NCBI GenBank assembly: GCA_043804695.1
Contig: JAZDIV010000047.1
Coordinates: forward strand, 1-27,097
DNA length: 27,097 nucleotides
Reading direction: 5' to 3'
From: PVC group bacterium
Lineage (GTDB): Bacteria; Auribacterota; Erginobacteria; Erginobacterales; Erginobacteraceae
Part shown: positions 129-25,900 of the stretch, piece by piece
Numbering within the stretch: the stretch's first letter is position 1
Layout: each line of letters opens with the position of its first letter
Made by a program: the position numbers and the translations under genes
The notes under the pieces: model-generated
The model's input: only the letters and a program-made list of their open reading frames with translations
The model's database searches: none
Told to the model about the DNA's origin: nothing

Positions 129-157
129 TAAATTTGCGACCGAAAGTCGCTAATTTA
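129..157 (+). repeat. REP-like palindrome (family A) ending 4 nt before the dprA ATG
   Basis: TAAATTtGCGAC-cgaaa-GTCGCtAATTTA, 12-bp arms with 1 mismatch, then TACA-ATG. Confidence 0.8.
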
Positions 158-161
158 TACA

Positions 162-1262
162 ATGAATGAGAAGGAGTATCTGCTCATACTTAATCTGATC
201 CGGGGCCTGGGCCCGGTCAGAATCCGGAACCTGATGAGTCATTTCGGCCGGGCTTCCGACATCATCAGGCAGCCGGCTGCCGCCCTGCAGCAGGTGCCGG
301 GAATCGGCCCGCGCCTGGCCCGGGCCATCAGCGTCTGGGAAGAGCTGGAATACCGGGAAGAGTTCAGGCTGATCGAGAAGCTGGGATTGACGATTCTGAC
401 TGTCTTCGATCCCGGATATCCCGCCAACCTGAAAGAGATATATGATCCGCCGGTCATTCTCTATGTCTCGGGGAGGCTGATCCCGGAGGACAAGCCGGCC
501 CTGGCCGTTGTCGGATCCCGCCGGGCGTCTCAGTACGGGCTCCAATCCGCCCGGAAACTGTCGTATCAGCTGGCCTCCCGCGGGTTCACGGTGGTGAGCG
601 GGCTGGCCCGGGGAATTGATACCGCCGCTCACCGGGGGGCGCTGACCGCCGGCGGCCGGACGATCGCGGTTCTCGGCAGCGGCCTCGGGAACATTTATCC
701 TCCCGAGAACAGAAAGCTGGCGGAGGAGATCGCCGCCGCCGGCGCGGTAATCTCCGAGTTTCCGGTCCGCGCGGTCCCGGACCGGCAGAATTTTCCGCTC
801 CGCAACCGCCTGGTGAGCGGACTCTCCCTCGGCGTCCTGGTGGTTGAGGCCGCCCGGCGGAGCGGGGCTTTGATCACGGCCCGTCTGGCCATGGACCAGG
901 GACGCCCGGTCATGGCGGTCCCGGGACGGATAGACAGCTTCGCCGCCCGGGGCGTCAACTCCCTGATCCAGGACGGCGCCAAGATGGTCTCCGAGGTCGA
1001 TGACATTCTGGAGGAGTTCGAGTATCTCTTCCCCCGGGCCTCTGCTGCCGGCCCCGTCATCCCGGCCGGCCCCGGCCGGACCGGCAATCTCTCGCCGGAC
1101 GAGCGCCTGGTCTACGATGTTTTCTCCGAGGAAGAAACCGGGATGGAGCGGATATTGTCGGAGTCGGGGCTCTCGTCGCCGGCGGCATCCGCGGCCCTGG
1201 TCTCGCTGGAGCTGAAGCGGATGATCAGGCGGCTGCCGGGTAAACTTTTCATCAGAACATAA
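162..1262 (+). CDS. dprA: DNA-processing protein DprA/Smf
   Basis: Motifs YPANLKEIYDPP, AVVGSR, VVSGLARGIDTAAH, FPLRNRLVSGLS, VEAARRSGALITA; C-terminal winged-helix tail. Confidence 0.97.
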   Translation: MNEKEYLLILNLIRGLGPVRIRNLMSHFGRASDIIRQPAAALQQVPGIGPRLARAISVWEELEYREEFRLIEKLGLTILTVFDPGYPANLKEIYDPPVILYVSGRLIPEDKPALAVVGSRRASQYGLQSARKLSYQLASRGFTVVSGLARGIDTAAHRGALTAGGRTIAVLGSGLGNIYPPENRKLAEEIAAAGAVISEFPVRAVPDRQNFPLRNRLVSGLSLGVLVVEAARRSGALITARLAMDQGRPVMAVPGRIDSFAARGVNSLIQDGAKMVSEVDDILEEFEYLFPRASAAGPVIPAGPGRTGNLSPDERLVYDVFSEEETGMERILSESGLSSPAASAALVSLELKRMIRRLPGKLFIRT

Positions 1263-1287
1263 ATTAGCGCCGTCGGCGCTACTTTAT
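1259..1287. repeat. REP-like palindrome (family A) overlapping the dprA stop codon
   Basis: ATAAAtTAGCGCC-gtc-GGCGCTAcTTTAT; TAA at 1260-1262 lies in the left arm. Confidence 0.85.
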
Positions 1288-1379
1288 AAGACCAACAATT
1301 CGCTGAAATACAGTTTAATTGATACTGCCTGGGGGATGAGAAAAATCAAACAGATCACGCCACAACGGCAATTCAATAA

Positions 1380-1452
1380 TCTTATTTTTCTCCCCCGATT
1401 GATACCTCCCCGATTAAAGCTTCGGGGCGGGGGGCGGGGCGGAAAAATAAGA
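1380..1452. repeat. Imperfect long inverted repeat in the dprA-xerC gap
   Basis: TCTTATTTTTC (1380-1390) / GAAAAATAAGA (1442-1452) enclosing C-rich then G-rich tracts, including CCCCGA...TCGGGG. Confidence 0.55.
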
Positions 1453-1494
1453 ATGTGCAAGCATTGGACCGGCATTGCCGGGATATTTTAAAGT

Positions 1495-1521
1495 AAATTC
1501 GTGTAATTCGCGAAATTCGTA
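1495..1521. repeat. Three degenerate 9-mer tandem repeats
   Basis: AAATTCGTG TAATTCGCG AAATTCGTA. Confidence 0.6.
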
Positions 1522-1540
1522 GTTTATTTAGTTGCCCGAG

Positions 1541-1581
1541 CCCCGATAAATCGGGGTAGACTGCGCGAGGGCTAAGTTCTA
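1541..1581 (+). repeat. Small hairpin plus degenerate family A right arm before xerC
   Basis: CCCCGAT-aa-ATCGGGG at 1541-1556; GCTAAgTTcTA-ATG resembles GCTAATTTATA-ATG seen at pyk and tatD. Confidence 0.5.
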
Positions 1582-2478: not shown

Positions 2479-2483
2479 TCATT

Positions 2484-2558
2484 ATGATAAAGAATGTGGT
2501 GCTGATTATAGCCGGGTTGTTATCGCAGATCGTCATCAGCCAGGCAGGGGAATTTTAA
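2484..2558 (+). pseudogene. 24-codon ORF resembling a bare signal peptide (possible gene remnant or small protein)
   Basis: Hand translation MIKNVVLIIAGLLSQIVISQAGEF*, starting 5 nt after the xerC stop. Confidence 0.35.
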
Positions 2559-2565
2559 TGATGTG

Positions 2566-2691: not shown

Positions 2692-2736
2692 TACCCTCGG
2701 AAAAATCACAACCTTATTTTTTACGGAGCAAAAAAT

Positions 2737-3159
2737 ATGAAAATGACGGCAGTCGTGGTATCGATGGCGGCGCTGCTGGCGTGCCTTTCCGGCTGCGGCG
2801 GGGGCAAGTACGCCGACGCGGAAAAAGTTATCAACCGGCAGTATGAGATGATGGACGCGTTTACGATCGAGGTCGATAAGGCCGAAGAGGCGGCGCAGGT
2901 GATTGCCGCCCTGAAGAAGTTTCAGAAGACCGCGGAAGGCGCCAGAGAGGAGATGATGCAGCTGACTAAAAAGTATCCTGAGTTGATGACCAAGGAGAAC
3001 GCGCCGGAAGAGCTGCAGGAAGTGGTAAAAAAGATGGATGAGATGATGCCCCGGTTTATCAACGCCATGATGAAGATCGGGCAGCAGTACGGCGATAATC
3101 CGGAAGTCAAGAAGGTCCTCGCGGATATGCAGTCCAGCCTGGCGCCCCCCCGGAAGTAA
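2737..3159 (+). CDS. Uncharacterised helical lipoprotein
   Basis: Signal peptide with lipobox LSG-C20; Met/Glu/Lys-rich helical-looking body; RBS, promoter and terminator present. Confidence 0.85.
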   Translation: MKMTAVVVSMAALLACLSGCGGGKYADAEKVINRQYEMMDAFTIEVDKAEEAAQVIAALKKFQKTAEGAREEMMQLTKKYPELMTKENAPEELQEVVKKMDEMMPRFINAMMKIGQQYGDNPEVKKVLADMQSSLAPPRK

Positions 3160-6200: not shown

Positions 6201-6381
6201 TCTCGATCTCTCGCGGTCCGGCCCCCAGATAAGTGGTGGAGACGGTGATGACGGGGATGTCCACCGGAGGGAAAAGATCGATCGGAAGTTTCACGTAGCC
6301 GACGATCCCCAGGAGGACGCAGATCAGGATGACCACCGTCATCAGAACGCGGCGTTTGATTGCCAGGTTGGAGAGGAACAT
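3298..6381 (-). CDS. RND-family (AcrB/HAE1-like) efflux permease
   Basis: 1027 aa; LPIDLFPPVDIP, GAGPREIETLISKPLEEEL, two periplasmic lobes, RLRP motif, PLALG...APMAIVSIGG. Confidence 0.95.
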   Translation of the reverse strand: MFLSNLAIKRRVLMTVVILICVLLGIVGYVKLPIDLFPPVDIPVITVSTTYLGAGPREIETLISKPLEEELSTTEGLKHIKSVSKEGISLVLLEFELDQDVDVAAADVRDKVALVEPDLPDDADKPLIQKFDINASPIMQLAVSGQRSPQDLYLIADNRIKPQFAKIKGAASAEIVGGQEREILVSIDLDRLNAYHLQPGDIARAISAANLELPSGHITQQLTEYTVRLAGKVEEVARFSSLKIPTPDGEKVRLADLGEIKDTVKEVRELARFQGEPALGMVIRKRADANTIAVADRVRETIKELEKTLPGDIRIAVAEDNSEFIRGSLSEVWNNMVIGIILTAICLFLFLHDLRSTLILTVAMPTSIVSTFLLLFLFGYSINIMSMLGLALSVGILVNNSILVLENIHRYLDMGKPRVEAARVGTSEIAAAVASTTLTNIVVFVPIAFMASIVGQFFRQFAMTVVFSTIFSLFVSYTLTPMLAARFLKEKEKKAKLFESWDRFYISLSHRYGNLVRKLIRFKWAVIGLALAVFLAVIFLIVPRIGSEFFPRADEGIFKITIETPVGANLAMTDMITGRVEAILRGLPEQEKIFTTIGKLSRMLGGSNQGINLAEITVDLVDQDRRNRSTAQVMNSIRPALAGIPGAGFTLQETQQGGGSGEKPIQLEIHGDDIDILNELAARTVGRARNIPGAADVDTDWRTGNPEIWIIPERDRASEYGITVAEIARTIRDSLTGEVASTFREMDDEFDIRVKLDEKDRNFREQIKDISILDKNSRPVPLTAVCRIEMREGPTTITRKDRERIVTVSANVIGATSGEVAAQMRNFLREEAGLPPGYTYFFSGEIERMQENFSDIFMALGLAVILTFLMLAAILESYRYPVMIMLSLPLAMSTVFIMLLLTDTTLNIFSLMAMVMLVGLVINNTIVIVDYSNLLRREGKSIEDAVVSACVVRLRPLLMANITTIVAMIPLALGMGWGGGFRAPMAIVSIGGMIGGGLLALIVMPAIYVVFSSPRQHLRKIVDRITR

Positions 6382-6405
6382 AAAATTTTTCTTCGAAAAA
6401 TTTTA
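6381..6405 (-). repeat. AT-rich hairpin (family B) overlapping the A of the RND start codon
   Basis: Coding strand TAAAATTTTTC-gaa-GAAAAATTTTA|TG, perfect 11-bp stem. Confidence 0.8.
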
Positions 6406-6436
6406 ATTATTAAGGAGATCATTAAATAGATTACAT

Positions 6437-6515
6437 GTCATTGCGAGGAACGAAGTGACGAAGCAATCTCAGTCAATTGGAGAATAAGGGATTGCTTCGC
6501 TCCGCTCGCAATGAC
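6437..6515. repeat. 79-bp palindromic element, copy 1
   Basis: GTCATTGCGAG...GAAGCAATC...GATTGCTTC...CTCGCAATGAC; second copy at 16803-16881. Confidence 0.9.
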
Positions 6516-6588
6516 TATTGCACAGGATGCGATCTATTTAATGCTCTCCTTAAAAGAATTATTTTTATCCATGTTTGTTGATTACCGT

Positions 6589-9629: not shown

Positions 9630-9633
9630 TATA

Positions 9634-9653
9634 TATACCTACCGGTAGGTATA
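9634..9653. promoter_or_regulatory. Probable TetR operator
   Basis: Perfect 20-bp palindrome TATACCTACCGGTAGGTATA, 4 nt upstream of the tetR ATG. Confidence 0.75.
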
Positions 9654-9676
9654 CACCATCGCCATAGACCTGTCAA
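9648..9676 (-). promoter_or_regulatory. Putative sigma70 promoter of the efflux operon
   Basis: Minus strand TTGACA (9676-9671)-17 nt-TATACC (9653-9648); the -10 overlaps the operator. Confidence 0.55.
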
Positions 9677-10899: not shown

Positions 10900-11129
10900 C
10901 AAACAATTGTTTATTTCGCGCTGAAACACGATTGCTGAAGCTGTTGGGATCAGTTTTTATCCAGCGATTCAAGTCGGAAGAGTGATCCTGATCACGGTTT
11001 TAGGGGCACTTTTTTCTCAACAAACGACTTTGATTCGAGTATTATGTCTATTATGACCTGAACTGTTGGCTGAGATTATAAGGCTTTTTCCGGTGTTGCC
11101 TCGGTCAATTGATTTCAGTTTGACCGGCA

Positions 11130-11148
11130 GACCCGACGAAGTCGGGTC
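11130..11148 (+). repeat. Small GAA-loop hairpin
   Basis: GACCCGAC-gaa-GTCGGGTC. Confidence 0.7.
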
Positions 11149-11153
11149 CACTT

Positions 11154-11182
11154 TAAATTAGCGACCGAAGGGAGCTAATTTA
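11154..11182 (+). repeat. REP-like palindrome (family A) ending 2 nt before the pyk ATG
   Basis: TAAATTAGCgaCC-gaa-GGgaGCTAATTTA-TA-ATG; the mismatch creates an SD-like GGGAG. Confidence 0.8.
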
Positions 11183-11184
11183 TA

Positions 11185-12637: not shown

Positions 12638-12769
12638 TCAGGGTTCAGGGTTCAGGGGGCAGGGGGAAGGAGAAGAATGGTAATCAGTGATCGGTAATCA
12701 GTGGGCGGGTAAACAGGTTACACTGATCACTGATCACCGATTACTGATCACCGATTACTGATTACCGAT
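12638..12769. repeat. Heptamer tandem arrays in inverted arrangement (STRR-like)
   Basis: TTCAGGG-like units, then GGTAATCAGTGATCGGTAATCAGTG (12679-12703), then 7 x YACYGAT (12721-12769). Confidence 0.85.
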
Positions 12770-12784
12770 ATAAAGGGGACAGAT

Positions 12785-13327: not shown

Positions 13328-13348
13328 GCGTAGTTTACAATAACTGCC

Positions 13349-14026
13349 ATGCCTTTCTCCCAGATACTTATCTTCCTGCCGGTGCTGCTTTTCTCGGTGA
13401 TCATCCACGAATATGCCCACGGGTGGATGGCGCTCAGGTGCGGCGACCCGACCGCCCGCGACGCGGGCCGGCTGACGTTGAACCCGATCCCCCATATCGA
13501 CCCGTTCATGACGATTCTTTTGCCCCTTTTTCTGATCATATCGCATTCCGGCTTCATCATCGGGGGAGCAAAACCGGTCCCGGTCAACCCTTCCCTCTTC
13601 CGGAGAGGGGAGAAGGACGGTGTTCTGGTTGCGGCCTCCGGCGCCGCCGCCAATATACTCCTGGCGGTCTGCGCGTTTTTCCTTTCTCTGATTATAACGA
13701 TTATCTACAAGCTGACCGGCGGCTCGATCATCATCGCCGCCCTGCGGTTTTTTAACAGCGTCATTTTTCTTAATCTCGTTCTCGCCAATTTTAACCTTCT
13801 TCCGATCCCGCCTCTCGACGGTTCCCACATCCTGGCATATTTTTTGAAAGGAGAGGCTAAGTACGCCTATCTTCGGCTCTCGCGTTACGGTTTTATGATC
13901 CTGATCGGTGTCATTATTCTGGGTGATATGCTGCCGATCAGGGGAGGATTGTTCTCGCTCCTCCTGGCGCCGAGTATTTCCCTGATCGAGGCCGTGACCG
14001 GTGTGCAGCTGTCGTGGCTGACCTGA
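13349..14026 (+). CDS. Site-2 protease family (M50) membrane metalloprotease
   Basis: HEYAH zinc motif, GDPTARDAGRLTLNP, FNLLPIPPLDGSHI. Confidence 0.95.
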   Translation: MPFSQILIFLPVLLFSVIIHEYAHGWMALRCGDPTARDAGRLTLNPIPHIDPFMTILLPLFLIISHSGFIIGGAKPVPVNPSLFRRGEKDGVLVAASGAAANILLAVCAFFLSLIITIIYKLTGGSIIIAALRFFNSVIFLNLVLANFNLLPIPPLDGSHILAYFLKGEAKYAYLRLSRYGFMILIGVIILGDMLPIRGGLFSLLLAPSISLIEAVTGVQLSWLT

Positions 14027-14037
14027 GGTTAAGGGTG

Positions 14038-15762
14038 ATGAGAGGCGGCATGATCTGGTGTTGTCAGCCCGTTGATGAAGAGACGGCCCGTCGGCTGTCC
14101 GGGTCGCTGGGGGTGTCTCTCCCGCTCGCCCGTCTCCTGGTCCGGCGGGGGTATGAAGAAGAGGAGACCGCCCGCCGGTTTCTCTCCCCCCACCCGTCGC
14201 AACTGCGCGATCCCTACCTGATGGCGGACATGAAGAAGGCGGTGGCAAGGCTGGGGAGGGCCATCTCGGAAAAGGAGAAGGTCTTTATCTTCGGCGACTA
14301 CGATGTTGACGGGGTGACGTCGATCACCATCCTCTCCGCGCTGCTCGATGCCGCCGGCGTCCCCTACCGGGCTTATCAGCCCAACCGGCTCAAGGAGGGG
14401 TACGGCCTGAGCAGGGAAGGAGTGGACCGGGCCCTCGAGTACGGAGCCTCGCTTCTCTTTGCCCTCGACTGCGGCACGGAGGCGGGAGAAGAGATCGCCT
14501 ATGCCCGGAGCCGGGGCCTGGACGTGATCGTGATCGACCACCATACACAGAGGGGACCGCTGCCGGACGCCGCCGCCATCCTCAACCCCAACCGGGCCGA
14601 CTGCCCCTATCCCTTCAAGGGTTTGGCCGCGGTTGGCGTGGTCTTTAAATTTCTGCACGGCGGCCTAGCTGAATGGTCCGTTCCGGTGGACTGGGAACGC
14701 CTCTATCAGCTGGCCGCTCTCGGGACGGTGGCGGACGTGGCTCCTCTCGTGGACGAGAACCGGGTCCTGGTCGCCGCCGGCCTTCACTTCCTGGAAAGTA
14801 GGCCGGACCCTCCCCTGCGGGCGCTGCTGGAAGTTTCCGGCTTCACTTCCGGCCGGTTAACCGCGGGCCAGCTCGCTTTCCAGATTGCTCCCCGCCTTAA
14901 CGCCGCCGGGCGGATGGGAAGGGCCGAACTCGGGCGGCAGCTCCTGGCCGCCCGGGACCGGGGGGAGATGAGGAACCTGGCCGAACAGCTGAACCGGCTG
15001 AACGATGAACGCCGCTCTCTCCAGGCCGCGATACTCGACGAAGCCGGGGAGAAGATCGAAGCCGAGAGGGAAAAATATCTCGGGAGCGTGATCGTCGTCG
15101 AGGGAGAGGGGTGGAACAAGGGGATTGTCGGCATCGTCGCCGCCAAACTCCAGGAGAGGTACTACCGTCCGGTGGTGGTCATCGCCCTGGAAGGGGAGAG
15201 AGGGACCGGCTCCGCCCGCGGCATCCCCGGATTCAATCTCTTCGAGGCGGTCAGCCGCTGCGCGGAATACCTCACCGCCTTCGGCGGCCATCAGGCGGCG
15301 GCTGGAATCAGGATCGACCGGGAACGGATCGATGATTTCCGCAAAGCGCTGGACCGGGTCGCCGGTGTCATGCTGGGGAAGGAAAGTCCGGTGCCCGAAC
15401 TGGAAATTGATGCCGAGATCGAACTCGAGGAGGCTACCATCGAGCTGGCCGGCGAGCTGGACCGGCTGGAGCCCTTCGGGCACGGCAATCCCCGCCCGGT
15501 GTTCTGCAGCGTGACAAAGTCCATGGCGGGGTCCCCGTCGGTTATGGGGAAGAAGAACAACCATCTGAAGATCCGGCTTCTCGGTGAGGGAGGAACCTGG
15601 GAATGCGTGGGCTGGGAGATGGCCCCCCGGGTATCCGACCTTGATTCCGGCCCGATCGATATCGCCTACCAGATCAGGACGGACACGTTCCGTAGCCGGC
15701 CGCGGGTCCAGCTGGTCCTGAAAGATTTCCGGCAGTCGATGCCTGTTTCGGAATTTCAATAA
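14038..15762 (+). CDS. recJ: Single-stranded DNA exonuclease RecJ
   Basis: GDYDVDG, DCG, DHH, GTVADV, APRLNAAGR, GSAR, FGGHQAAAG, LEPFGHGNP; start uncertain (14014 GTG, 14038 ATG or 14050 ATG). Confidence 0.95.
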   Translation: MRGGMIWCCQPVDEETARRLSGSLGVSLPLARLLVRRGYEEEETARRFLSPHPSQLRDPYLMADMKKAVARLGRAISEKEKVFIFGDYDVDGVTSITILSALLDAAGVPYRAYQPNRLKEGYGLSREGVDRALEYGASLLFALDCGTEAGEEIAYARSRGLDVIVIDHHTQRGPLPDAAAILNPNRADCPYPFKGLAAVGVVFKFLHGGLAEWSVPVDWERLYQLAALGTVADVAPLVDENRVLVAAGLHFLESRPDPPLRALLEVSGFTSGRLTAGQLAFQIAPRLNAAGRMGRAELGRQLLAARDRGEMRNLAEQLNRLNDERRSLQAAILDEAGEKIEAEREKYLGSVIVVEGEGWNKGIVGIVAAKLQERYYRPVVVIALEGERGTGSARGIPGFNLFEAVSRCAEYLTAFGGHQAAAGIRIDRERIDDFRKALDRVAGVMLGKESPVPELEIDAEIELEEATIELAGELDRLEPFGHGNPRPVFCSVTKSMAGSPSVMGKKNNHLKIRLLGEGGTWECVGWEMAPRVSDLDSGPIDIAYQIRTDTFRSRPRVQLVLKDFRQSMPVSEFQ

Positions 15763-15796
15763 TCGGAAAAATCCGATTATTGAAATTTCGAAACAG
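15743..15796. repeat. 25-bp-stem hairpin spanning the recJ stop (terminator or MITE-like)
   Basis: CTGTTTCGGAATTTCAATAATCGGA-aaaa-TCCGATTATTGAAATTTCGAAACAG, one G-T mismatch. Confidence 0.8.
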
Positions 15797-15935
15797 ACGA
15801 AAAAGCAACTAAAATAACAATTTTCGATTTTGTTTTATGATAACTGGGACTTACCGTTTTGGCGTGAATAGTTGGATTGAAACTAATCAAAATAACGTAA
15901 ACAAACTTCTTTTATTGTAAGATAAAAGAACCCAC

Positions 15936-15962
15936 TAAATTAGCGCCGAAGGCGCTAATTTA
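15936..15962 (+). repeat. REP-like palindrome (family A, perfect) ending 2 nt before the tatD ATG
   Basis: TAAATTAGCGCC-gaa-GGCGCTAATTTA-TA-ATG. Confidence 0.9.
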
Positions 15963-15964
15963 TA

Positions 15965-16747
15965 ATGATGAATCTGATCGACTGCCACGCCCATCTCGAC
16001 GAGTTTGACGATATCGGTTCCGTTCTCGAGCGGGCGGCCTCTGCCGGGGTCGGCGGGATCCTCGGTGTCGGCGTCAATACCGCCACCAGCCGGAAGATCC
16101 TGGAGATCTCCCGAATCCATCCTTCACCCGGGATTGCGCCGGCCGCCGGCCTCTATCCCGATGAAGTCACGGAGGGCGAAATCGGGACCATCCTGGAACT
16201 GATCGATCGGGAACATCCCGGTTTGGCGGCACTCGGCGAGATCGGTCTCGATTACTGGGTCCGGGCCCTTCGCAAGAAGCAGCCGGGCCGGGAACGGACA
16301 AAGGCGCTCCAGCAGGAAGCCTTCCGCCGGCAGCTCAGGAAGGCCCGGCAGTATTCGCTGGTGCCGATCGTACACAGCCGCGGGGCCTGGGCGGATTGTT
16401 TCCGGCTGGTGGAGGAGGAGGGCCTGGAGCGGGCGGTCTTCCACTGGTACACCGGTCCCCTGGATGTGCTGGATAAAATTCTGGCCGCCGGCTACCACGT
16501 CTCCGCCACCCCGGCGACCGCCTACAGTCCCCAGTTGAGGGAAGTACTTCAGAGGACTCCGCTCGAGAAGATTATCCTGGAGACGGATTGCCCGGTGCCC
16601 CGGTGGGAAGGAGAGGAAAGGATCCGGACCGAGCCGGCCGACGTTTGTTATTCATTGAAAGCAGTTGCTCAATTGAAAGGAATCCCGGAAGAGGAGGTTG
16701 CCCGAATTACTACAGATACTGCTAGGAAACTCTTTTTTAAAGTGTAA
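15965..16747 (+). CDS. tatD: TatD-family hydrolase/nuclease
   Basis: IDCHAHL, GEIGLDY, VHSR, VFHWYTG, LETDCP. Confidence 0.92.
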   Translation: MMNLIDCHAHLDEFDDIGSVLERAASAGVGGILGVGVNTATSRKILEISRIHPSPGIAPAAGLYPDEVTEGEIGTILELIDREHPGLAALGEIGLDYWVRALRKKQPGRERTKALQQEAFRRQLRKARQYSLVPIVHSRGAWADCFRLVEEEGLERAVFHWYTGPLDVLDKILAAGYHVSATPATAYSPQLREVLQRTPLEKIILETDCPVPRWEGEERIRTEPADVCYSLKAVAQLKGIPEEEVARITTDTARKLFFKV

Positions 16748-16774
16748 GCGCCAATATCTGATAAATAATATTTA

Positions 16775-16917
16775 GTGTCTGACCGAAAACCCTAAAATTC
16801 AGGTCATTGCGAGGAGGGACGACGAAGCAATCTGCTTAGTTTGTGAGGAGATTGCTTTGTCGCTCCGCTCCTCGCAATGACAAAATCTATGCGTTTCAGG
16901 GGTTTTCGTTCAGACAC
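16775..16917. mobile_element. 143-bp MITE-like element
   Basis: Terminal IRs GTGTCTGACCGAAAACCC / GGGTTTTCGTTCAGACAC (17/18 match), flanked by direct repeat TATTTA (16769-16774, 16918-16923). Confidence 0.7.
16803..16881. repeat. 79-bp palindromic element, copy 2 (nested in the MITE)
   Basis: GTCATTGCGAGGA...GACGAAGCAATCT...AGATTGCT...CTCGCAATGAC. Confidence 0.9.
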
Positions 16918-16940
16918 TATTTAGTAAAAATCCCAAATCC

Positions 16941-16971
16941 CAAGCACCTCAGCCTCCGGCTGAGGTGCTTG
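16941..16971 (-). repeat. 14-bp-stem hairpin with GCC-tcc-GGC core
   Basis: CAAGCACCTCAGCC-tcc-GGCTGAGGTGCTTG followed by TTATTT; may double as a terminator. Confidence 0.75.
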
Positions 16972-17012
16972 TTATTTGTGATTTCTTCAATCTCTGGAAT
17001 TGACAACACTCA

Positions 17013-18179
17013 ATGAGCTTAGAATCTTCCCCCCGCCTTTATACAACCGAATTCCTGAAGGTGACCGTGATCATGTTCTTGATCATGACCACCATGACCA
17101 TGTTTCTTCTTCTCCCCCTGCTGATCGAAAAAATGGGCGGCGATGCGGCGGACATTGGACTGGTGATGGGGATCACTCCGCTCGGCGCCGTGATCAGCCG
17201 GATCTTCTGGGGCCGGTGGATGGACCTGGCGGGAAGGAAAAAGATACTTCTCCTCGGCACGCTGCTCAATACGGCCGCGATCCTGCTTTTCCTCACGGTC
17301 CGCGGGGTGGGGATCCTGATGGTCATGCTCCGTCTTCTCCAGGGTCTCGCGTTGGGGGGGAATATCACCGCGGTCTGGACGATCATCGCCGATATCACGC
17401 CGCAGCGACGCCTGGCGGAGTCGCTGGGGATCTTCGGAATCGCCGGGATGGCGGCGCTGGCGCTGGGGCCGTGGGGAGGGGAACTGGTCATGAAAGCGCA
17501 CGGTTTTCCGGGGCTGTTCATCGCCTCCGGTCTTCTCTCCCTCACCGCCGTACTCCTCTCCCTCCGGGTCAGGGAGAGCCGACCCTCATCAGCCTGCGAT
17601 TCAATTACCCCCTCCTATCGGAAAATGCTGAAGGGCGGGGTGATGTCCGTCTTCCTGGTCACGATCGCCTTCGCCGTCAGCCGGAGCGCCTTCGCCTCTT
17701 TCTTCGCCGAGTACTCCCGGCTCCGGCAGATCGGCTCTATGGGCGTGTACTCCATCATCTATTCGGGGACGACGATCGGCTTCCGGCTTCTGGCCGGCAG
17801 GCTCCCCGACCGACTCGGGCGAACCCGGGTCCTGATCCCGGCCCTGATCGTCTTCGGGACCGGGATCGGCCTGATCGCGTTCATCCATTCCTGGCCCCTT
17901 TTCATTCTCTCCGCGTTTTTCTGCGGGCTGGGGCACTGTTTTCTCTACCCGGTCCTGAACGCCCTGGTCATCCAGAAAGTGCACTCCTGCACCCGGGGCA
18001 CGGCCACCGGTCTTTTTATCAACAGTTTTGACCTCGGGATCGGAGCGGGCTCGATCGCCTGGGGGCTGGCGGCCCAGTTCGGAGGGTACCGCCTGATGTA
18101 TCTGCTTGGGGGAGCAACCGCCCTGCTCGGGATCGGGGGCGTTCGCCGCTTACTCAGGGAAGCTTCACCTGCCGGGTGA
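17013..18179 (+). CDS. MFS transporter
   Basis: About 12 hydrophobic segments; motif A GRWMDLAGRKK and GRLPDRLGRTR; RLLQGLALG. Confidence 0.93.
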   Translation: MSLESSPRLYTTEFLKVTVIMFLIMTTMTMFLLLPLLIEKMGGDAADIGLVMGITPLGAVISRIFWGRWMDLAGRKKILLLGTLLNTAAILLFLTVRGVGILMVMLRLLQGLALGGNITAVWTIIADITPQRRLAESLGIFGIAGMAALALGPWGGELVMKAHGFPGLFIASGLLSLTAVLLSLRVRESRPSSACDSITPSYRKMLKGGVMSVFLVTIAFAVSRSAFASFFAEYSRLRQIGSMGVYSIIYSGTTIGFRLLAGRLPDRLGRTRVLIPALIVFGTGIGLIAFIHSWPLFILSAFFCGLGHCFLYPVLNALVIQKVHSCTRGTATGLFINSFDLGIGAGSIAWGLAAQFGGYRLMYLLGGATALLGIGGVRRLLREASPAG

Positions 18180-18339
18180 CCGTTTTTGTCCGTAGCATTT
18201 CCCGCCGGTTCCGGTATACTGTGCTTTTACCGCCGGCATTAACAGGAAGAATAACACGTTGTCCTTCCGGAGAAGAAAAAACAGAGTGCTGTAGCCGTAT
18301 AAACGAGATTGCTATTCATAATGCATTGAACGACAATCA

Positions 18340-18391
18340 TTAACCCGAATTATTCATGAAAATTTTAAATTTCATGAATAATTCGGGTTAA
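18340..18391. repeat. Perfect 22-bp inverted repeat ending 5 nt before the uvrA ATG (possible mini-MITE between TTAA sites)
   Basis: TTAACCCGAATTATTCATGAAA-8 nt-TTTCATGAATAATTCGGGTTAA. Confidence 0.8.
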
Positions 18392-18396
18392 GCCCG

Positions 18397-21261
<2,865 letters not shown>

Positions 21262-21303
21262 TGCTTGGTATCGAAAATATCTTACCACGAAGAACATGTG
21301 GAA

Positions 21304-21498
21304 AAATGACTAAATCCGAATGAGACATGACGAAAGAATGTCGAATCCAGAATGACGAAACTTTCTCCGGCTGTCTGCGTTGCGTAGTCGAGGGGTGAAA
21401 TTGGAAATTTAGTAATTCATCATTCGGATTTCATTCGGGTTTCGTCATTCGGTTTTCGTCATTTATTTTCGGGTTTCGTCATTTGAGTTTCGTCATTT
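21304..21498. repeat. Inverted array of AATGACGAAA / TTTCGTCATT units
   Basis: Two ATGACGAAA plus degenerate copies on the left; four TTTCGTCATT plus TCATTCGG on the right. Confidence 0.8.
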
Positions 21499-21573
21499 CT
21501 TTATTCATGCTCTTATTCTCTGTTATGTTACTATCATCTTTAACTGAACCAATAATGTATCCGGAGGTTTCCC

Positions 21574-22194
21574 ATGTCTTTCTTTGTCTTTAACCAGGGC
21601 GGTCCCCTGATGTACCTGATCCTGCTGGGCTCGGTGATCGGCCTGGCGGTTTTCCTTGAACGGTCCTTCCACCTGCACCGGGCCCGGATCGACACCGATC
21701 AGTTCATGAAAGAAATCCGTTCGCTGATCCGGCAGAAGAAGATTGCCGAAGCCATCAGCCTCTGCCGCCGGACGCCCGGCCCGGTTGCCCACATCCTGAC
21801 CGCCGGGCTGGCCCAGCACGGGCGCAGCCGCCCGGAGATCCGGGAAGCGATCGAGGACGCGGGCGTCCACGAAGTGCCCCGGCTGGAGAAGAACCTGATC
21901 GTCCTCGCCACCGTGGCCCATGTTTCGCCTCTGCTGGGGCTCCTGGGAACGGTGACGGGGATGATCCGGGCCTTCATGACCATTCAGGAGATGGAAGGGG
22001 TGGTCAACCCCTCCGATCTGGCCGGCGGCATCTGGGAAGCGCTCCTGACCACCGCCTTCGGTCTCCTGGTGGCGATCATGGCGTATGTGGCCTACAATTA
22101 CCTGGTGTCCCGGGTGGGGAAGATGGTCCTGGACATGGAGACCAGCGCGTCCGACGTCGTCAGCCTCCTCTCCGAAGAAGGCACTTCTGATTAG
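21574..22194 (+). CDS. exbB: MotA/TolQ/ExbB proton channel protein
   Basis: GGPLMY, SPLLGLLGTVTGMI, GGIWEALLTTAFGLLVAI; GGAGGT RBS. Confidence 0.92.
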   Translation: MSFFVFNQGGPLMYLILLGSVIGLAVFLERSFHLHRARIDTDQFMKEIRSLIRQKKIAEAISLCRRTPGPVAHILTAGLAQHGRSRPEIREAIEDAGVHEVPRLEKNLIVLATVAHVSPLLGLLGTVTGMIRAFMTIQEMEGVVNPSDLAGGIWEALLTTAFGLLVAIMAYVAYNYLVSRVGKMVLDMETSASDVVSLLSEEGTSD

Positions 22195-22244
22195 GGCATG
22201 AGCACCGATCCTGGAAACTGTGTGTTGTTCGGCCGGATGATTAT

Positions 22245-22277
22245 TTTTAAAATTTTACCGCAGGTAAAATTTTAAAA
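22245..22277 (+). repeat. AT-rich hairpin (family B) overlapping the A of the exbD start codon
   Basis: TTTTAAAATTTTACC-gca-GGTAAAATTTTAAAA|TG, perfect 15-bp stem. Confidence 0.85.
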
Positions 22278-22699
22278 TGAAGTTTAAACGAAAGACAATG
22301 CTGGAGCGGGGGCGGCTTGACATTGCTCCTCTCATTGACGTCGTTCTCCTTCTCCTGATCTTTTTCATGCTCACCTCCAGCTTTATCACCCCGGCGGGCT
22401 TGAGGGTCGATCTCCCCGAATCAAGCGTCGCCGAGCCGCAGGAGAAGGAGAATCTGGTCATCGTCATTTCCGGGGAGGGGGACCTGTTTATCGAAAATGA
22501 GCCGGTCTCCTGGGATTCCTGCCGGGAGCGGCTGGCTTCCAGCCTCGCCTTTTCCCCGAAAAGGGTCTTGATTCTGGAAGCGGATCGCCAGGCCCGCCAC
22601 GGGGTGGTGGTGCGGGTGATGTCCCTGGCCAGGGAACTCGGCTGGAAACGGATGGCGATCGCCGCCCAGCCTAACGCGAATGTAACAGACGAAGATTAG
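22277..22699 (+). CDS. exbD: ExbD/TolR biopolymer transport protein
   Basis: DIAPLIDVVLLLLIFFMLTS, VDLP, ADRQARHGVVVRVM. Confidence 0.93.
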   Translation: MKFKRKTMLERGRLDIAPLIDVVLLLLIFFMLTSSFITPAGLRVDLPESSVAEPQEKENLVIVISGEGDLFIENEPVSWDSCRERLASSLAFSPKRVLILEADRQARHGVVVRVMSLARELGWKRMAIAAQPNANVTDED

Positions 22700-22955
22700 T
22701 TATTTTCCCCCCCGCCTCTCCCCCGATAAGAAAGCAGACGATTGAATGTGATTGAATAGATTTGGTTGGCCCGCCGCCACGGTCGACGTTCGACGTTCAA
22801 TCTTTTACCGGGCGCCATGCTCTATGCTCTCTGCGTCTCCGCGGTTCATCTTTTGCCGTAAAAATCGTCAAAAACCGTGATTTTTTCGAAATTTCTTTTT
22901 TTCCTCTCGTCGATGTAGTAAACTCACATTCAAGACAACCCCCTTACTTACCTGT

Positions 22956-22982
22956 TAAAATTTTTGCGGAGCCAAAATTTTA
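22956..22982 (+). repeat. AT-rich hairpin (family B) ending 1 nt before the dnaE ATG
   Basis: TAAAATTTTtGC-gga-GCcAAAATTTTA-T-ATG, 12-bp arms with 1 mismatch. Confidence 0.75.
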
Positions 22983-22983
22983 T

Positions 22984-25900
22984 ATGAGTTCTTCCGACTT
23001 CGTCCATCTTCACGTACATACCGAGTATAGCCTGCTGGACGGCGCCTGTCGGCTGCCGGTTCTCCTGGAACGCGCCTCCCGGCTGAAGATGCCGGCTCTG
23101 GCCATTACCGATCACGGATCGATGTCCGGGGTGGTGAAGTTTTACAAGGCGGCCCTGGACGTGGGCATCAAGCCCATCATTGGCTGCGAATTCTATGTCG
23201 CTCCCGCCGGCCGTTTTGATAAAACCGCCGGCCCGAAAGCGGCGGCCTCTCACCTCACCCTCCTGGCCCGGGACCGGACGGGGTATCAGAATCTTTTAGT
23301 GCTCATCTCCCGGGCTCACCTGGAAGGTTTTTATTACAAGCCCCGGATCGACCGGGAGCTGCTGGAAGAGCGCCATCAGGGGCTGATCGGGTTAAGCGGC
23401 TGCCTGAAGGGGGAAATCGCCCGGGCGTTGCTGGGGGACGACCGCCCGGCCGCCGAAGGCTTCCTGGCCTATTATTCCGATCTTTTTGGCAGGGATAATT
23501 TCTACCTCGAGCTGATGGATCACGGCCTGCCCGAGCAGAAGCGGCTCACCCCGCTCCTGCTCGATCTCTCCCGCCGATCCGGGGTGCCGCCGGCAGCCAC
23601 CAACGATGTCCATTACGTGAATCGGGAAGACGCCTATTCCCAGGAGGTTTTGCTCTGCATCCAGACCGGGCGGCAGCTGGAGGACAAGGCCCGGATGAAG
23701 CTCGCCTCCGAGGAGTTTTACCTGAAGTCCGCCCAGGAGATGGGAGCGCTTTTCGGCGAAGTGCCGGAGGCTCTCCTGAACACCCGCCGGATCGCCGACC
23801 GGTGTTCGCTGGAGATGGAGTTCGGACTAGATCTCCTTCCCCGCTTCGAGCCCCCCCCGGGAAAGACCCCCCCGGAATATCTCCGGGAACTTTGCGAGAA
23901 AGGGATCGCCGGGCGTTACGGGAGGGAAACGGAAACGATCCGGGAGCGTCTGGAGCATGAGTTGAAAGTTATCGAGGGGAAACGCTTCGCCAGTTATTTC
24001 CTGATCGTCTGGGATCTTATCCGTTACGCGAAAGTTCACAAAATACCGGTCGGGCCCGGCCGCGGGTCCGTCGCCGGGAGCATTGTCGCCTACCTGCTCG
24101 GGATCACCGACATCGACCCTTTCCGGCACGACCTGCTCTTTGAGCGTTTTCTCAACCCCAACCGGACCACGATGCCGGACATCGACATGGATATTTCCGA
24201 CCAGGGGCGGGCGGAACTGATTAAATATTCCAGCCAGAAATACGGGGAAGAACGGGTCTGCCAGATCATCACCTTCGGCTCCATGAAGGCCCGGGCGGTC
24301 ATCCGCGATGTCGGACGGGTGATGGGGATGCCGTACGGGGAGGTCGACCGGATTGCCAAACTGGTCCCCCCGGGCCCTCACATGACCCTGCAGAAAGCCC
24401 TCCAGGCCGAACCGAAACTGCAGGCTCTCTATGAGAAAGACGCCCGGCTCCAGGAGTTATTCGACGCCAGTTTCAAGCTGGAAGGGATCTCCCGCCACGC
24501 CGGGACCCACGCCGCCGGGGTTCTTATCTCCCGCCGGCCCCTGATCGAGAACGTGCCGCTTCGGCGGGGGAAGGACGATGAGGTGATCACCCAGTTCGAC
24601 ATGCACGACGCGGAAGAAGTCGGCCTCCTCAAAATGGATTTCCTCGGGCTGCGCACCCTCTCCGTCATTCAGAACACGCTGGATCTGATCGAGAAGATCC
24701 GGGGGGAGGTGATCGGCATCAACGCCATTACCCTCGATGATCCCGAAACCTTCAGCCTCCTCTCCAAGGCCAACACCATGGGAGTGTTCCAGCTGGAAGG
24801 ATCCGGGATGAGGGATCTCTCCACCCGGATCGGATTGAAGAGGTTCGACGACATCCTGGACCTGGTCGCGCTCTACCGCCCGGGGCCGATGCATATGCTG
24901 GAGGACTACATCTCCCGGAAGCACGGCAAAATAAAGATCAAGTACGCCCACCCGCTCCTGGAGCCGATCCTGAAAGACACCTACGGCGTCATGCTCTACC
25001 AGGAGCAGGTGATGCTGATCGCCAACCGGCTGGGCGGTTTTACCCTGGCCAAAGCCGACACCCTCCGCCAGGCGATGGCCAAGAAAAATGCCGAGAAGAT
25101 GGCCCAGCTGGGCGAATCCTTTATCAGGGGAGCGATGGAGAGGGGGATCGCGAGATCGGTGGCGGAAAACATTTTTCAAGACATGTCCCGGTTCGCCGCC
25201 TACGGCTTCAACAAGTCTCACAGCGCGGCCTACGCCATGATCGCGTACCGCACCGCCTACCTGAAGGCCCATTATCCCCGGGAGTTCATGGCGTCGCTTC
25301 TTACCAGTGAGATGAACGACATGGACAAGATGATGTCCTATGTGGCGGAGTGCCGGGAGATGGGGATCGAGGTCATGCCCCCGGACATCAACGAGAGCGA
25401 AGCCAGTTTTACCGTGGTCGGGAAAAATATCCGTTTCGGGCTGAACGCCATCAAGAATGTGGGCGCGGTCGCGGTCGCGGCGATTTTGTCCGCCCGCCGG
25501 GAGGGGGGGGCGTTTGATTCTTTTTTCCGGCTGCTGGAGAGACTGGATCTCTCTGCGGTTAATAAAAAAGTCCTGGAGACCCTGATCAAGTGCGGCGCCC
25601 TCGACTCCCTTCCCGGTTTTCGGTCGCAGAAGCTGGAGGTCCTGGACGGCGCGCTCCAGAGGGCTCATCTGACCCGGAAAGACCGGGAGAACGGACAGAG
25701 CACGCTCTTTGCTCAGTTCGAGACGGAGAAGAGGGAAAACGGCGAAACTGGTTTCCCGGAGATGGACGAATGGCACCAGAACCAGTGCCTGGCCATGGAG
25801 AAGGAACTGATGGGAATGTACATCTCCGGCCACCCCCTGAGTGCGCACGAAAAGATCATCCGGTCGCTCTCCACACACTCGATCCTCCAGCTGAGGGAGC

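What the first reader, a model, noticed from the sequence alone, without database searches (positions are those of the whole stretch)
129..22986. GNA-loop hairpins abut the start codons of six unrelated genes: candidate non-canonical translation-initiation or control signal
Seen on the coding strand: dprA TAAATTtGCGACcGAAaGTCGCtAATTTA-taca-ATG (129-164); RND TAAAATTTTTC-GAA-GAAAAATTTT-ATG (6405-6379, minus strand); pyk TAAATTAGCgaCC-GAA-GGgaGCTAATTTA-ta-ATG (11154-11187); tatD TAAATTAGCGCC-GAA-GGCGCTAATTTA-ta-ATG (15936-15967); exbD TTTTAAAATTTTACC-GCA-GGTAAAATTTTAAA-ATG (22245-22279); dnaE TAAAATTTTtGC-GGA-GCcAAAATTTTA-t-ATG (22956-22986). The loop reads GNA in the sense direction in all six, its centre is 12-19 nt from the ATG, and the stem base is AT-rich. 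Two different sequence families give the same geometry, which suggests conserved structure rather than sequence. Genes with an ordinary SD (lipoprotein, 12785 ORF, exbB, hup) lack the hairpin. xerC has a degenerate right arm, and uvrA has a different long hairpin in the same position. Established: stable structure over the ribosome loading site normally inhibits initiation, so recurrence before dnaE is unexpected. Inference, four options: an SD-independent initiation signal; a meltable or protein-bound translational switch (loop plus 3' arm give SD-like GGAG/AAGG/AGGT at long spacing); an RNase site producing short-leader mRNAs; or a mobile palindrome that targets AT-rich start regions.
Basis: partly seen in the sequence, partly recalled or inferred. 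Interest (0 to 1): 0.78.

Follow-up and report, generated by a model that had tools for sequence, protein, structure and literature searches.

The report
Polar hairpin repeats abutting gene boundaries
The hairpins in front of the start codons are real and far from chance, but they belong to a family of small repeated palindromes that crowd against both ends of genes, tRNA genes included, in one uncultured bacterial lineage, so they are probably not a special signal for starting translation.

Summary
Of 411 C(GNA)G-loop hairpins in this 2.97-Mb draft genome, 111 end -3 to +6 nt from a start codon of a called gene. About 30 more are followed directly by a normal Shine-Dalgarno (SD) sequence and then the start. 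The opposite loop orientation abuts a start about ten times less often.

The same hairpins also end 0-6 nt before tRNA and tmRNA genes. Flipped copies begin at stop codons and at tRNA 3' ends. On both sides of a gene the loop reads GNA toward the gene: 83:8 and 76:5.

They are solo copies or end modules of 180-250-nt repeat cassettes. They are confined to one bacterial family and a few genomes of its order. They are gained and lost between genera, replacing SD leaders and splitting the exbB-exbD junction.

I read them as polar, REP/BIME-like mosaic repeats that are transcribed in leaders and tolerated there. SD-like loops (GGA) are enriched at starts in this genome and in G003, but not in five other relatives.

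This scan described the start-codon hairpin before, on other pieces of this genome (e1-1164851).

The parts
129..157 (+). Hairpin 4 nt before the dprA ATG (162). It is a GC-core family variant with a 5-nt CGAAA loop.
   Evidence: -9.9 kcal/mol as RNA
1259..1287 (.). Same GC-core family at the other end of dprA. The stop codon TAA (1260-1262) lies in the left arm. The loop is GTC, an atypical copy.
1532..1575 (+). Composite hairpin 6 nt before the xerC ATG (1582). An outer hairpin with tandem G.A mismatches encloses a second small hairpin (1541-1556). The intact outer family precedes pyk in another species (L001).
2714..2737 (+). A/T hairpin with a GGA loop whose last base is the A of the ATG of the 2737-3159 ORF. 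It has one A.C mismatch.
6381..6405 (-). A/T-only hairpin with a GAA loop. The stem's last A is the A of the RND transporter ATG.
   Evidence: -6.0 kcal/mol
9632..9655 (-). Different palindrome (CCGG centre) a few nt before the ATG of the 9051-9629 gene. It shows that other palindromes also abut starts.
11066..11184 (+). Partial copy of repeat cassette X in front of pyk. It holds a promoter-like stretch, a GC hairpin (11130-11148) and the terminal hairpin (11154-11182) with tandem G.A mismatches. The ATG is at 11185.
15743..15962 (+). One whole cassette of the Y/Z family fills the gap between the 14050 gene and tatD. Its long hairpin (15743-15796) supplies the last six codons and the stop (15760-15762) of the upstream gene. 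Its terminal GAA hairpin (15936-15962) ends 2 nt before the tatD ATG (15965).
22245..22277 (+). 15-bp A/T hairpin with a GCA loop. Its last base is the A of the exbD ATG. It lies in an 82-nt spacer inside the exbB-exbD pair that relatives G005 and G006 lack.
22956..22982 (+). A/T hairpin with a GGA loop, 1 nt before the dnaE ATG (22984). It is kept at the same site in the same-genus genome G001 and is absent in G004, G005 and G006.
   Evidence: -4.9 kcal/mol

Best explanation
The hairpins are copies of a lineage-restricted family of small interspersed palindromic repeats. Some are solo units of 25-33 bp. Others are the end modules of 180-250-bp mosaic cassettes. These cassettes can replace a whole intergenic region, running from the upstream gene's last codons to the downstream start codon.

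Shown:
- They pile up against the first or last functional base of genes of any kind (start codon, SD, stop codon, tRNA and tmRNA ends).
- They are polar. The strand on which the loop reads C-GNA-G runs 5' to 3' toward the adjacent gene at either end of it.
- They turn over between genera.

Inferred, step 1: they spread by a DNA-level, strand-specific copying or insertion process that uses the C(GNA)G form. This form makes an unusually stable single-stranded DNA mini-hairpin, and its RNA version is much weaker. The enzyme is unknown.

Inferred, step 2: once in place they are transcribed as part of 5' leaders. The grounds are copies in the 16S-23S spacer, copies in operon junctions, and a cassette with its own promoter-like TTGGCT-N18-TATnnT about 100 nt upstream.

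Inferred, step 3: translation starts beside them because the lower stem is A/U-rich and weak. Copies whose loop happens to read GGAG or AAGG are kept preferentially at starts, as a displaced substitute SD.

They are therefore tolerated, and in part co-opted, repeats rather than a dedicated initiation signal.
For: Family and spread:
- The GC-core pattern has 115 matches in G000, 63 in G001, 64 in G003, 16 in G004, 1 in G006 and none in the other 26 genomes searched.
- The A/T pattern has 144 matches in G000, 115 in G001, 91 in G003, 1 to 27 in ten further genomes (G004-G009, G011, G013, G022, G029) and none in the other 18.

Turnover:
- tatD has the cassette only in G000. All 12 closest relatives examined lack it, and at least three of them (G001, G003, G006) carry an SD there instead.
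- exbD has an insertion in the operon junction.
- The dnaE hairpin is shared only within the genus.
- The xerC hairpin family sits before pyk in another species.

Cassettes:
- Family X has 47 copies. The hairpin end abuts a start in 33, a stop in 2 and neither in 12.
- Family Y/Z gave 37 hits, some duplicated: start 20, stop 9, neither 8.
- The full-length X consensus has a TNC hairpin at its left end and a GNA hairpin at its right end.

Not translation-specific:
- 18 of 37 tRNA/tmRNA genes have a hairpin at the 5' end (GNA 9, TNC 1, other 8).
- 17 of 37 have one at the 3' end (TNC 6, GNA 2, other 9).
- Three further cases precede tRNA genes in G011 and G013.

Polarity:
- Hairpins adjacent to the gene on their left are TNC 76, GNA 5. 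Those adjacent to the gene on their right are GNA 83, TNC 8.
- The rule holds in ++, -- and divergent contexts and decays to random beyond about 100 nt.
- It holds for copies with unique inner flanks: starts 52:6, stops 28:12.

DNA-level signs:
- Stem mismatches show no G.U excess.
- The closing C and G are 99-100% conserved.
- C-GNA-G is the DNA mini-hairpin motif, and its RNA counterparts are much less stable (PMC13037366, passages read).

Other:
- A repeat supplies the C-terminal tail and stop codon of the gene upstream of tatD.
- Loop bias at starts in G000 is 32 GGA, 14 GAA, 3 GCA. Stop-adjacent copies give 10, 9, 11 and other copies 22, 20, 19 plus 4 GTA. Fisher p is about 3e-4.
Against: - No mobilising enzyme was found. 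Y1 transposase genes are not flanked by these hairpins. Counts of Y1_Tnp, IS110 and DDE_3 genes do not track hairpin copy number.
- No target-site duplication could be read, because the element ends are A/T-rich and palindromic.
- The pattern was absent from viral contigs.
- A purely selfish model does not by itself explain two things: why copies sit exactly at the boundary rather than anywhere in the spacer (111 at -3..+6 against 23 at 17-40 nt), and why the family is three times rarer in convergent gaps (0.25 per kb against 0.63-0.76). Both point to some link with gene 5' regions.
- Cassette X points at starts 33:2, which looks selected.
- The DNA-level cause of the polarity is inference only. 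Two separate RNA-level preferences (GNA in leaders, UNC in trailers) would give the same pattern.
- The SD-like loop bias was not seen in G001 (3/2/3) or in G005, G006, G011 and G013 together (9/6/8).
- Transcript ends are unknown.
Confidence: 0.6

Rival explanations
1. Loop-displayed ribosome-binding site. The hairpin is an RNA element selected for initiation. The loop plus the first 3'-arm bases (GGAGG, GGAGA, GAAGG) pair with the anti-SD. The 10-15-bp helix acts as a compact spacer that brings a linearly distant SD to the right distance from the AUG at its base.
For: - The 16S 3' end carries the canonical CCUCC.
- 68 of 111 start-abutting hairpins contain GGAG or GAGG, all at -17 to -10.
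- Start-adjacent copies in G000 are GGA-rich and GCA-poor compared with stop-adjacent and other copies of the same family. G003 shows the same trend, 8/2/0.
- Hairpins that have their own SD downstream have a baseline loop mix: 10 GGA, 19 GAA, 7 GCA, 1 GTA.
- The cassette replaced an SD leader at tatD.
Against: - The same hairpins and the same polarity occur at tRNA and tmRNA genes and, mirrored, at stops.
- 43 of 111 lack any GGAG or GAGG.
- The motif sits about 5 nt farther upstream than the genome's SD peak at -11.
- TNC hairpins abut starts in tight gaps as often as GNA ones, 9:6.
- No loop bias was seen in G001, G005, G006, G011 or G013.
- Copies within a subfamily are not independent, so the Fisher tests overstate the case.
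Confidence: 0.2
2. RNA end-defining stem-loops. GNA hairpins protect or define 5' ends, or mark a cleavage that yields leaderless or short-leader mRNAs and tRNA precursors. UNC hairpins protect or define 3' ends. This resembles REP stabilisers, or hairpin and protein caps in chloroplast transcripts.
For: - The hairpin base coincides with the start of the functional RNA in three classes: AUG, SD, and the tRNA/tmRNA 5' end.
- Mirrored hairpins sit at stop codons and tRNA 3' ends.
- E. coli REPs close to stop codons are a known case of hairpins acting on mRNA (PMC12306157, passages read).
Against: - Stems show no G.U tolerance signature.
- The 5' and 3' hairpins of one gene are unrelated: 0 of 16 share an arm.
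- Stop-adjacent copies are rare in convergent gaps, where 3' protection is needed most.
- Loop type should not matter for exonuclease blocking.
- GNA triloops are the stable form in DNA rather than RNA.
- The A/T stems are weak as RNA.
Confidence: 0.1
3. Promoter element. The left arm (TAAAAT or TAAATT) is a -10 box and the loop G, six bases downstream, is the transcription start. In that case no hairpin exists in the RNA and the leader begins GGAGG.
For: With 12-nt arms the hexamer-to-loop spacing is exactly that of a -10 box to +1, and C then G gives the usual pyrimidine-purine start (logo). The model would unify mRNA, SD-bearing and tRNA cases.
Against: - No -35 signal appears at the right distance (information at most 0.1 bit).
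- In cassette X that position is a GC hairpin, and a better promoter-like site lies about 100 nt upstream.
- Position -11 is A in only 42% of copies.
- Copies occur inside the rRNA spacer and in 0-7-nt operon gaps.
- At stop codons the same element would fire antisense into the gene.
- The model leaves the palindromy unexplained.
Confidence: 0.05
4. Binding sites of a dimeric DNA-binding protein, either a global regulator or a nucleoid protein, at gene boundaries.
For: The elements are perfect palindromes of 25-33 bp at fixed positions relative to genes.
Against: - Stem sequences differ widely between families while only the C-GNA-G centre is constant.
- A symmetric dimer cannot read loop polarity, yet polarity is 10:1 or better.
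- Copies are gained and lost between close relatives.
Confidence: 0.05

Closest known systems
REP sequences and BIME mosaics of enterobacteria and pseudomonads (mobilised by RAYT Y1 transposases)
   Same: Both are short extragenic palindromes in hundreds of copies, combined with other modules into mosaics and transcribed with neighbouring genes. Many E. coli REPs lie within 15 nt of a stop codon and affect the upstream gene (Liang et al. 2015, as cited in PMC12306157; passages read). One subfamily here has GTAG in its left arm.
   Different: These elements are A/T-rich at the base with an invariant C-GNA-G triloop. They abut start codons, SDs and tRNA ends, not only 3' ends. They show strict polarity toward the gene on both sides. 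No RAYT gene is flanked by them; the one RAYT-like locus found is flanked by a different GC-rich repeat.
Correia elements (Neisseria) and other bacterial MITEs such as ERIC, RUP and BOX (recalled, not read here)
   Same: Both are small non-autonomous repeats that insert next to genes, are co-transcribed, can carry promoter-like sequence and can form hairpins in mRNA. Both are lineage-restricted and variable between strains.
   Different: The cassette ends here are two different hairpins rather than matching terminal inverted repeats. No target duplication and no parent insertion sequence were identified. Solo 25-bp palindromes dominate.
DNA mini-hairpins d(GCGNAGC) in single-strand initiation signals and phage N4 virion-RNA-polymerase promoters
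   Same: The core is identical: CCGAAGG, CCGGAGG, GCGGAGC and GCGAAGC are the commonest cores here. These are the sequences named for RSF1010 ssiA and N4 promoters in PMC13037366 (passages read).
   Different: Those act in single-stranded phage or plasmid DNA, with the hairpin on the template strand. Here there are hundreds of chromosomal copies at gene boundaries, with the GNA form on the non-template strand at 5' ends. No link to priming or to a phage polymerase was shown.
Shine-Dalgarno sequences
   Same: The loop plus the adjacent stem bases often read GGAGG, GGAGA or GAAGG. The organism has the canonical anti-SD and uses SDs: a core is found at -18..-5 in 34% of my called genes against 10% in a control window.
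   Different: The motif lies about 5 nt too far upstream and is partly paired. It is missing in 43 of 111 copies. The element also precedes untranslated genes.

Membership tests
REP/BIME (RAYT-associated) | Short imperfect palindrome, more than 100 copies, extragenic | tested here: met
   418 GNA/TNC hairpins, 399 of them outside called genes
REP/BIME (RAYT-associated) | Combination with other modules into mosaic units | tested here: met
   Cassettes X and Y/Z combine several hairpins with a shared body
REP/BIME (RAYT-associated) | A Y1 (RAYT) transposase gene flanked by the same repeats | tested here: not met
   G000 has 6 PF01797 matches and none is flanked by these hairpins. One is flanked by a different GC-rich repeat. 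Counts in 31 genomes do not follow hairpin abundance.
MITE | Matching terminal inverted repeats and a target-site duplication | tested here: inconclusive
   The two cassette ends are different hairpin families. Each solo hairpin is its own inverted repeat. The A/T-rich palindromic ends hide any duplication.
MITE | A related full-length insertion sequence with transposase | tested here: inconclusive
   DDE_3 was not found in G000 or G001. IS110 has 1 match in G000 and none in G003. Only three transposase families were tried.
Shine-Dalgarno site | Complementarity to the 16S 3' end | tested here: inconclusive
   68 of 111 contain GGAG or GAGG and 43 do not. The anti-SD is canonical.
Shine-Dalgarno site | Spacing like the genome's other SDs | tested here: not met
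   The 4-mer starts at -17..-14 in most copies, against a genome peak at -11.
Shine-Dalgarno site | Confined to translated genes | tested here: not met
   Found at 18 of 37 tRNA/tmRNA 5' ends.
Intrinsic (Rho-independent) terminator | G+C-rich stem followed by a U-tract | tested here: inconclusive
   By eye, the sequences after stop-adjacent copies are not T-rich (list). T content was not counted. In tight operon gaps, TNC copies directly precede the next start.
DNA mini-hairpin d(C-GNA-G) | GNA triloop closed by C-G | tested here: met
   The closing C and G are 99-100% conserved. The loop middle base is G 58%, A 35%, C 7%. The motif definition is from PMC13037366.
DNA mini-hairpin d(C-GNA-G) | Forms in single-stranded DNA in the cell | not testable with these tools
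   No structural or in vivo data are available.

The most novel reading that the evidence does not exclude
A previously undescribed kind of mobile DNA. Minimal palindromes spread through a single-stranded C(GNA)G mini-hairpin intermediate and insert with fixed polarity at the edges of functional genes. The host ribosome has adapted by using the loop as an SD that is held at working distance from the AUG by the folded helix. In effect the repeat family would have rewritten the ribosome-binding sites and leaders of roughly 5% or more of the genes, essential ones such as dnaE and pyk included.
Probability: 0.2. Interest if true: 0.85.

Novelty: new variant of a known kind. Interest (0 to 1): 0.6.

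Why it matters
More than 100 genes, including dnaE, pyk and tatD, begin translation within two bases of a hairpin and have no SD at normal spacing. This bacterium is therefore a natural test of how much structure and how little SD a bacterial ribosome tolerates.

The strict polarity of a near-perfect palindrome toward the adjacent gene, at both gene ends and at tRNA genes, is not a property I know from REP, BIME or MITE families. It points to an unknown strand-specific mechanism or to paired RNA-level preferences.

For annotation, the elements mark start codons, stop codons and tRNA ends to within a few bases in this lineage. They also show that whole intergenic regions, with a terminator-like hairpin, a promoter-like box and a leader, can be exchanged as cassettes.

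Tried and rejected
- Panhandle or processing stalk between the 5' and 3' hairpins of one gene. Rejected: of 16 genes with both, none shares an arm and 2 have complementary loops (permutation mean 1.5).
- UNC-loop hairpins as one-way terminators. Weakened: TNC copies directly precede starts in tight operon gaps, 9 against 6 GNA, and no T-tract is evident after them (one search list).
- Transcription start just after the hairpin, giving leaderless mRNA from a -10 box in the right arm. Rejected: there is no TAnnnT at -12..-7 from the ATG in either family (reading).
- In-situ palindrome formation around an ancestral SD. Rejected: it cannot give identical families at many loci, at tRNA genes and at stop sites.
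- Replication-strand bias. Rejected: the two ends of one gene carry opposite orientations.
- RNA evidence. For window 13101-23100, no RNA holder was listed.
- Rfam. Nothing reached the gathering score in the window.
- Viral contigs. The GC-core pattern gave 0 matches.
- Transposase profiling with PF01797, PF01548 and PF13358. None tracks hairpin abundance.
- Literature. Searches (hairpin, triloop, start codon, SD; palindromic intergenic repeat, MITE, start and stop codon; Auribacterota, Aureabacteria, SURF-CP-2) listed no paper describing hairpin repeats abutting start codons. I judged this from listings and abstract starts only, not from full texts.
- A covariance model, protein searches and structure tools were not used. 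They would not have addressed the open questions about these repeats.

Full report
**What is in the window.** Folded as RNA they range from marginal to solid. dnaE gives -4.9 kcal/mol (z = -0.76) and RND -6.0. dprA gives -9.9, pyk -11.8, exbD -12.4 and tatD -15.9. The start codons themselves look right. The N-termini MKKTKIVC (pyk), MMNLIDCHAH (tatD), MSSSDFVH (dnaE) and MKFKRKT (exbD) line up with those of relatives.

The window is contig C47 of a 2.97-Mb, 155-contig draft at 57.8% G+C.
- My scan used a stem of at least 9 paired bases, at most one mismatch and a loop of 3-5. It found 1582 hairpins, dominated by triloops closed by C-G: GAA/TTC 181, GGA/TCC 160 and GCA/TGC 61.
- Of 418 such hairpins, 399 lie outside my 2178 crude gene calls.
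- In the GNA direction, 113 of 399 are followed within -3..+12 nt by an ATG opening at least 100 codons. The TNC direction gives 12 of 399 and other loops give 52 of 1520.
- A stricter count requires the start to be in frame with a called gene. It gives 111 of 411 at -3..+6 nt, with peaks at -1 and +2.
- A second class of 37 lies at +7..16. By eye, about 30 of these have AAGGAG or GGAGG directly after the stem.
- The hairpin base therefore sits either against the ATG or against a normal SD.

**The hairpins are not specific to translated genes.**
- ARAGORN finds 37 tRNA/tmRNA genes. Eighteen have a hairpin ending -3..+8 nt from the mature 5' end (GNA 9, TNC 1, other 8). These include tmRNA and the tRNA-Ile inside the 16S-23S spacer.
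- Seventeen have a hairpin starting -3..+8 nt from the 3' end (TNC 6, GNA 2, other 9).
- In relatives G011 and G013, three of the fetched copies end 4 nt before tRNA-Ala or tRNA-Ser.
- Protein genes show the mirror image at their 3' ends. TNC hairpins (read in the gene's sense) peak at -12..+5 nt from the stop, often with the stop codon inside the left arm. GNA hairpins are flat there.
- Only 5 of 69 such cases could be confused with antisense shadow ORFs, and in those five codon-position G+C supports the called gene.

**A polarity rule.**
- On the plus strand, hairpins within 10 nt of the gene on their left read TNC 76 times and GNA 5 times. Those within 10 nt of the gene on their right read GNA 83 times and TNC 8 times.
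- The rule holds in ++, -- and divergent contexts and fades to random beyond about 100 nt.
- In other words, the loop reads GNA toward the adjacent gene whichever end of the gene it is.
- Copies whose inner flank is unique in the genome keep the rule: starts 52:6, stops 28:12.
- Where one hairpin touches both a stop and the next start, the orientation is mixed: TNC 9, GNA 6. GNA is therefore not needed for a start next to a hairpin, and UNC hairpins are not strong terminators.
- The family is three times rarer in convergent gaps (0.25 per kb) than in co-directional (0.66-0.76) or divergent (0.63) gaps. Other hairpins are equally common everywhere.
- Most stop-adjacent copies thus belong to intergenic regions that also hold a gene start.

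**They are repeats, often the ends of cassettes.**
- The upstream flanks of GC-core hairpins fall into repeated families.
- Family X has 47 copies. The hairpin end abuts a start in 33, a stop in 2 and neither in 12, and several of the 12 are visibly starts that my caller missed.
- Family Y/Z gave 37 hits, with some duplicates: start 20, stop 9, neither 8.
- Twenty-seven long X copies aligned to a unit of about 215 nt. It comprises a TNC hairpin on the left, a stretch reading TTGGCT-N18-TATnnT, a GC hairpin, and the GNA hairpin on the right. Within the second hexamer, positions 4 and 5 are the least conserved columns.
- In the window, the whole 14050-gene-to-tatD gap (15743-15962) is one Y/Z cassette. 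Its first hairpin encodes the last six residues and the stop of the upstream protein, whose relatives end differently after a conserved LKDFH.
- The pyk leader (11066-11184) is a partial X copy.

**Lineage restriction and turnover.**
- The GC-core pattern has 115 matches in G000, 63 in G001 (same genus), 64 in G003, 16 in G004 and 1 in G006. The other 26 genomes searched have none.
- The A/T pattern has 144, 115 and 91 in G000, G001 and G003. It has 1-27 in ten further genomes, eight of them in the same bacterial family or order and two (G022, G029) elsewhere in the phylum with one match each. The other 18 genomes have none.
- Backwards-read controls gave 0 everywhere.
- In G005, G006, G011 and G013, 30 loci were fetched. 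Twenty-one abut an ATG of an ORF of at least 80 codons, two abut an rpmE-like short ORF, one is followed by an SD and a start, three precede tRNAs, and three do none of these.
- In G001 and G003, 8 and 10 of 30 fetched loci are ATG-adjacent, and 4 and 2 have an SD plus a start.
- tatD carries the cassette only in G000. All 12 closest orthologous loci examined lack it, and G001, G003 and G006 visibly have an SD there.
- exbD follows exbB after 8-9 nt in G005 and G006, but after an 82-nt spacer with the hairpin in G000. G003 has another hairpin family at that site.
- The dnaE hairpin is shared with G001 only.
- The hairpin family before xerC here precedes pyk in another species (L001).

**DNA or RNA?**
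- Stem mismatches in 319 distinct hairpins show no wobble excess: G.T/T.G 20 against A.C/C.A 26.
- The invariant part is C-GNA-G. A 2026 review (PMC13037366, passages read) describes this as the extraordinarily stable DNA mini-hairpin and says its RNA counterparts are considerably less stable. It names CCGAAGG in RSF1010 ssiA and GCGGAGC in phage N4 promoters, which are the same cores as here.
- This evidence, and a polarity that ignores transcription direction and gene type, lead me to favour a DNA-level, strand-specific origin of the polarity. This is inference.
- The elements are nevertheless almost certainly transcribed. Copies lie in the rRNA spacer, in 0-7-nt operon gaps and downstream of the promoter-like box of cassette X.

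**Is the loop an SD?**
- The 16S 3' end is canonical.
- About a third of my called genes have an SD core at -18..-5, peaking at -11. In hairpin genes, 68 of 111 carry GGAG or GAGG, mostly at -17..-14.
- Within the A/T family in G000, start-adjacent loops are GGA 32, GAA 14 and GCA 3. Stop-adjacent loops are 10, 9 and 11, and other copies are 22, 20, 19 and 4 (Fisher p about 3e-4). The unique-flank subset behaves the same way.
- G003 shows the trend (8/2/0). G001 (3/2/3) and the four more distant genomes together (9/6/8) do not.
- I take this as suggestive of secondary selection in some genomes, weakened by the non-independence of repeat copies.

**What I could not settle.**
- No RNA run was listed, so transcript ends are unknown.
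- No mobilising enzyme was found. Six Y1-transposase matches in G000 are not flanked by these hairpins, and one is flanked by a different GC-rich repeat. Y1_Tnp, IS110 and DDE_3 counts do not follow hairpin abundance. No viral contig holds the pattern.
- The exact abutment to gene boundaries and the rarity in convergent gaps are not explained by neutral insertion alone.

**Comparison with known systems.**
- The nearest known systems are REP/BIME mosaics. Their stop-codon-proximal copies in E. coli are known to act on translation (Liang et al. 2015, as cited in PMC12306157; passages read). Co-transcribed MITEs such as Correia elements (recalled) are also close.
- The start-codon and tRNA abutment, the replacement of SD leaders and the gene-directed polarity are the unusual features.
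- An earlier report of this scan (e1-1164851) reached a similar view of the start-codon hairpin from other pieces of this genome.
- The tRNA cases, the mirrored stop-codon rule, the polarity statistics, the tight-gap test and the loop-bias test are added here.
- The name Auribacterota for the organism comes from those notes and was not verified.

Noticed in passing
window 15743-15762: The last six codons (PVSEFQ) and the stop of the 14050-15762 gene are encoded by the first hairpin of a repeat cassette. Relatives have unrelated tails after the conserved LKDFH.
   Followed up: partly
window 11161-11176; also 1536-1571 and locus L001 upstream of pyk: A recurrent hairpin variant has two stacked G.A/A.G mismatches two pairs below the GNA loop. 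It is kept in different stem backgrounds and in another species. In some copies the right arm repeats the left arm directly instead of complementing it, which hints at template-switch mutation.
   Followed up: partly
window about 6430-6560 (minus strand) and about 16800-16880: A long hairpin repeat (CATTGCGAG...GAAGCAATC type) occurs twice in the window.
   Followed up: no
window 12640-12770 and 21300-21510: Intergenic arrays of short tandem units lie after pyk (GGGTTCAGGG-like, GTAATCAGTGATC-like and their complements) and before exbB (CATTCGGGTTTCGT-like). The two halves face each other.
   Followed up: no
window 18340-18390; G000 contig C84 about 12392-12442; window about 26530-26550: The long hairpin before uvrA belongs to another repeat family (AACCCGGATTATTCATGAAAATT...). 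It also precedes an SD and start on contig C84, and a half copy lies between dnaE and hup.
   Followed up: no
G000 contig C62, 11655-13028: A Y1-transposase-like ORF (12037-12336) is flanked by arrays of a GC-rich palindrome (CCCCTGCCGC-GYAAG-GCGGCAGGGG). This is a classic REP-RAYT arrangement, unrelated to the A/T-rich hairpins.
   Followed up: partly
G000 contig C48, about 37686-37937 (16S-23S spacer): tRNA-Ile and tRNA-Ala in the rRNA spacer are each bracketed tightly by A/T hairpins. One of them has a C(UUCG)G tetraloop.
   Followed up: partly
loci L132 (G005) and L124 (G011): A ribosomal protein L31-like gene (MKxKIHPEY) has the A/T GGA hairpin directly before its ATG in two different families of the order. 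It may be an old or recurrent insertion at one gene.
   Followed up: no
window 22277 against 22298: My codon-usage caller started exbD at 22298.
   Followed up: yes
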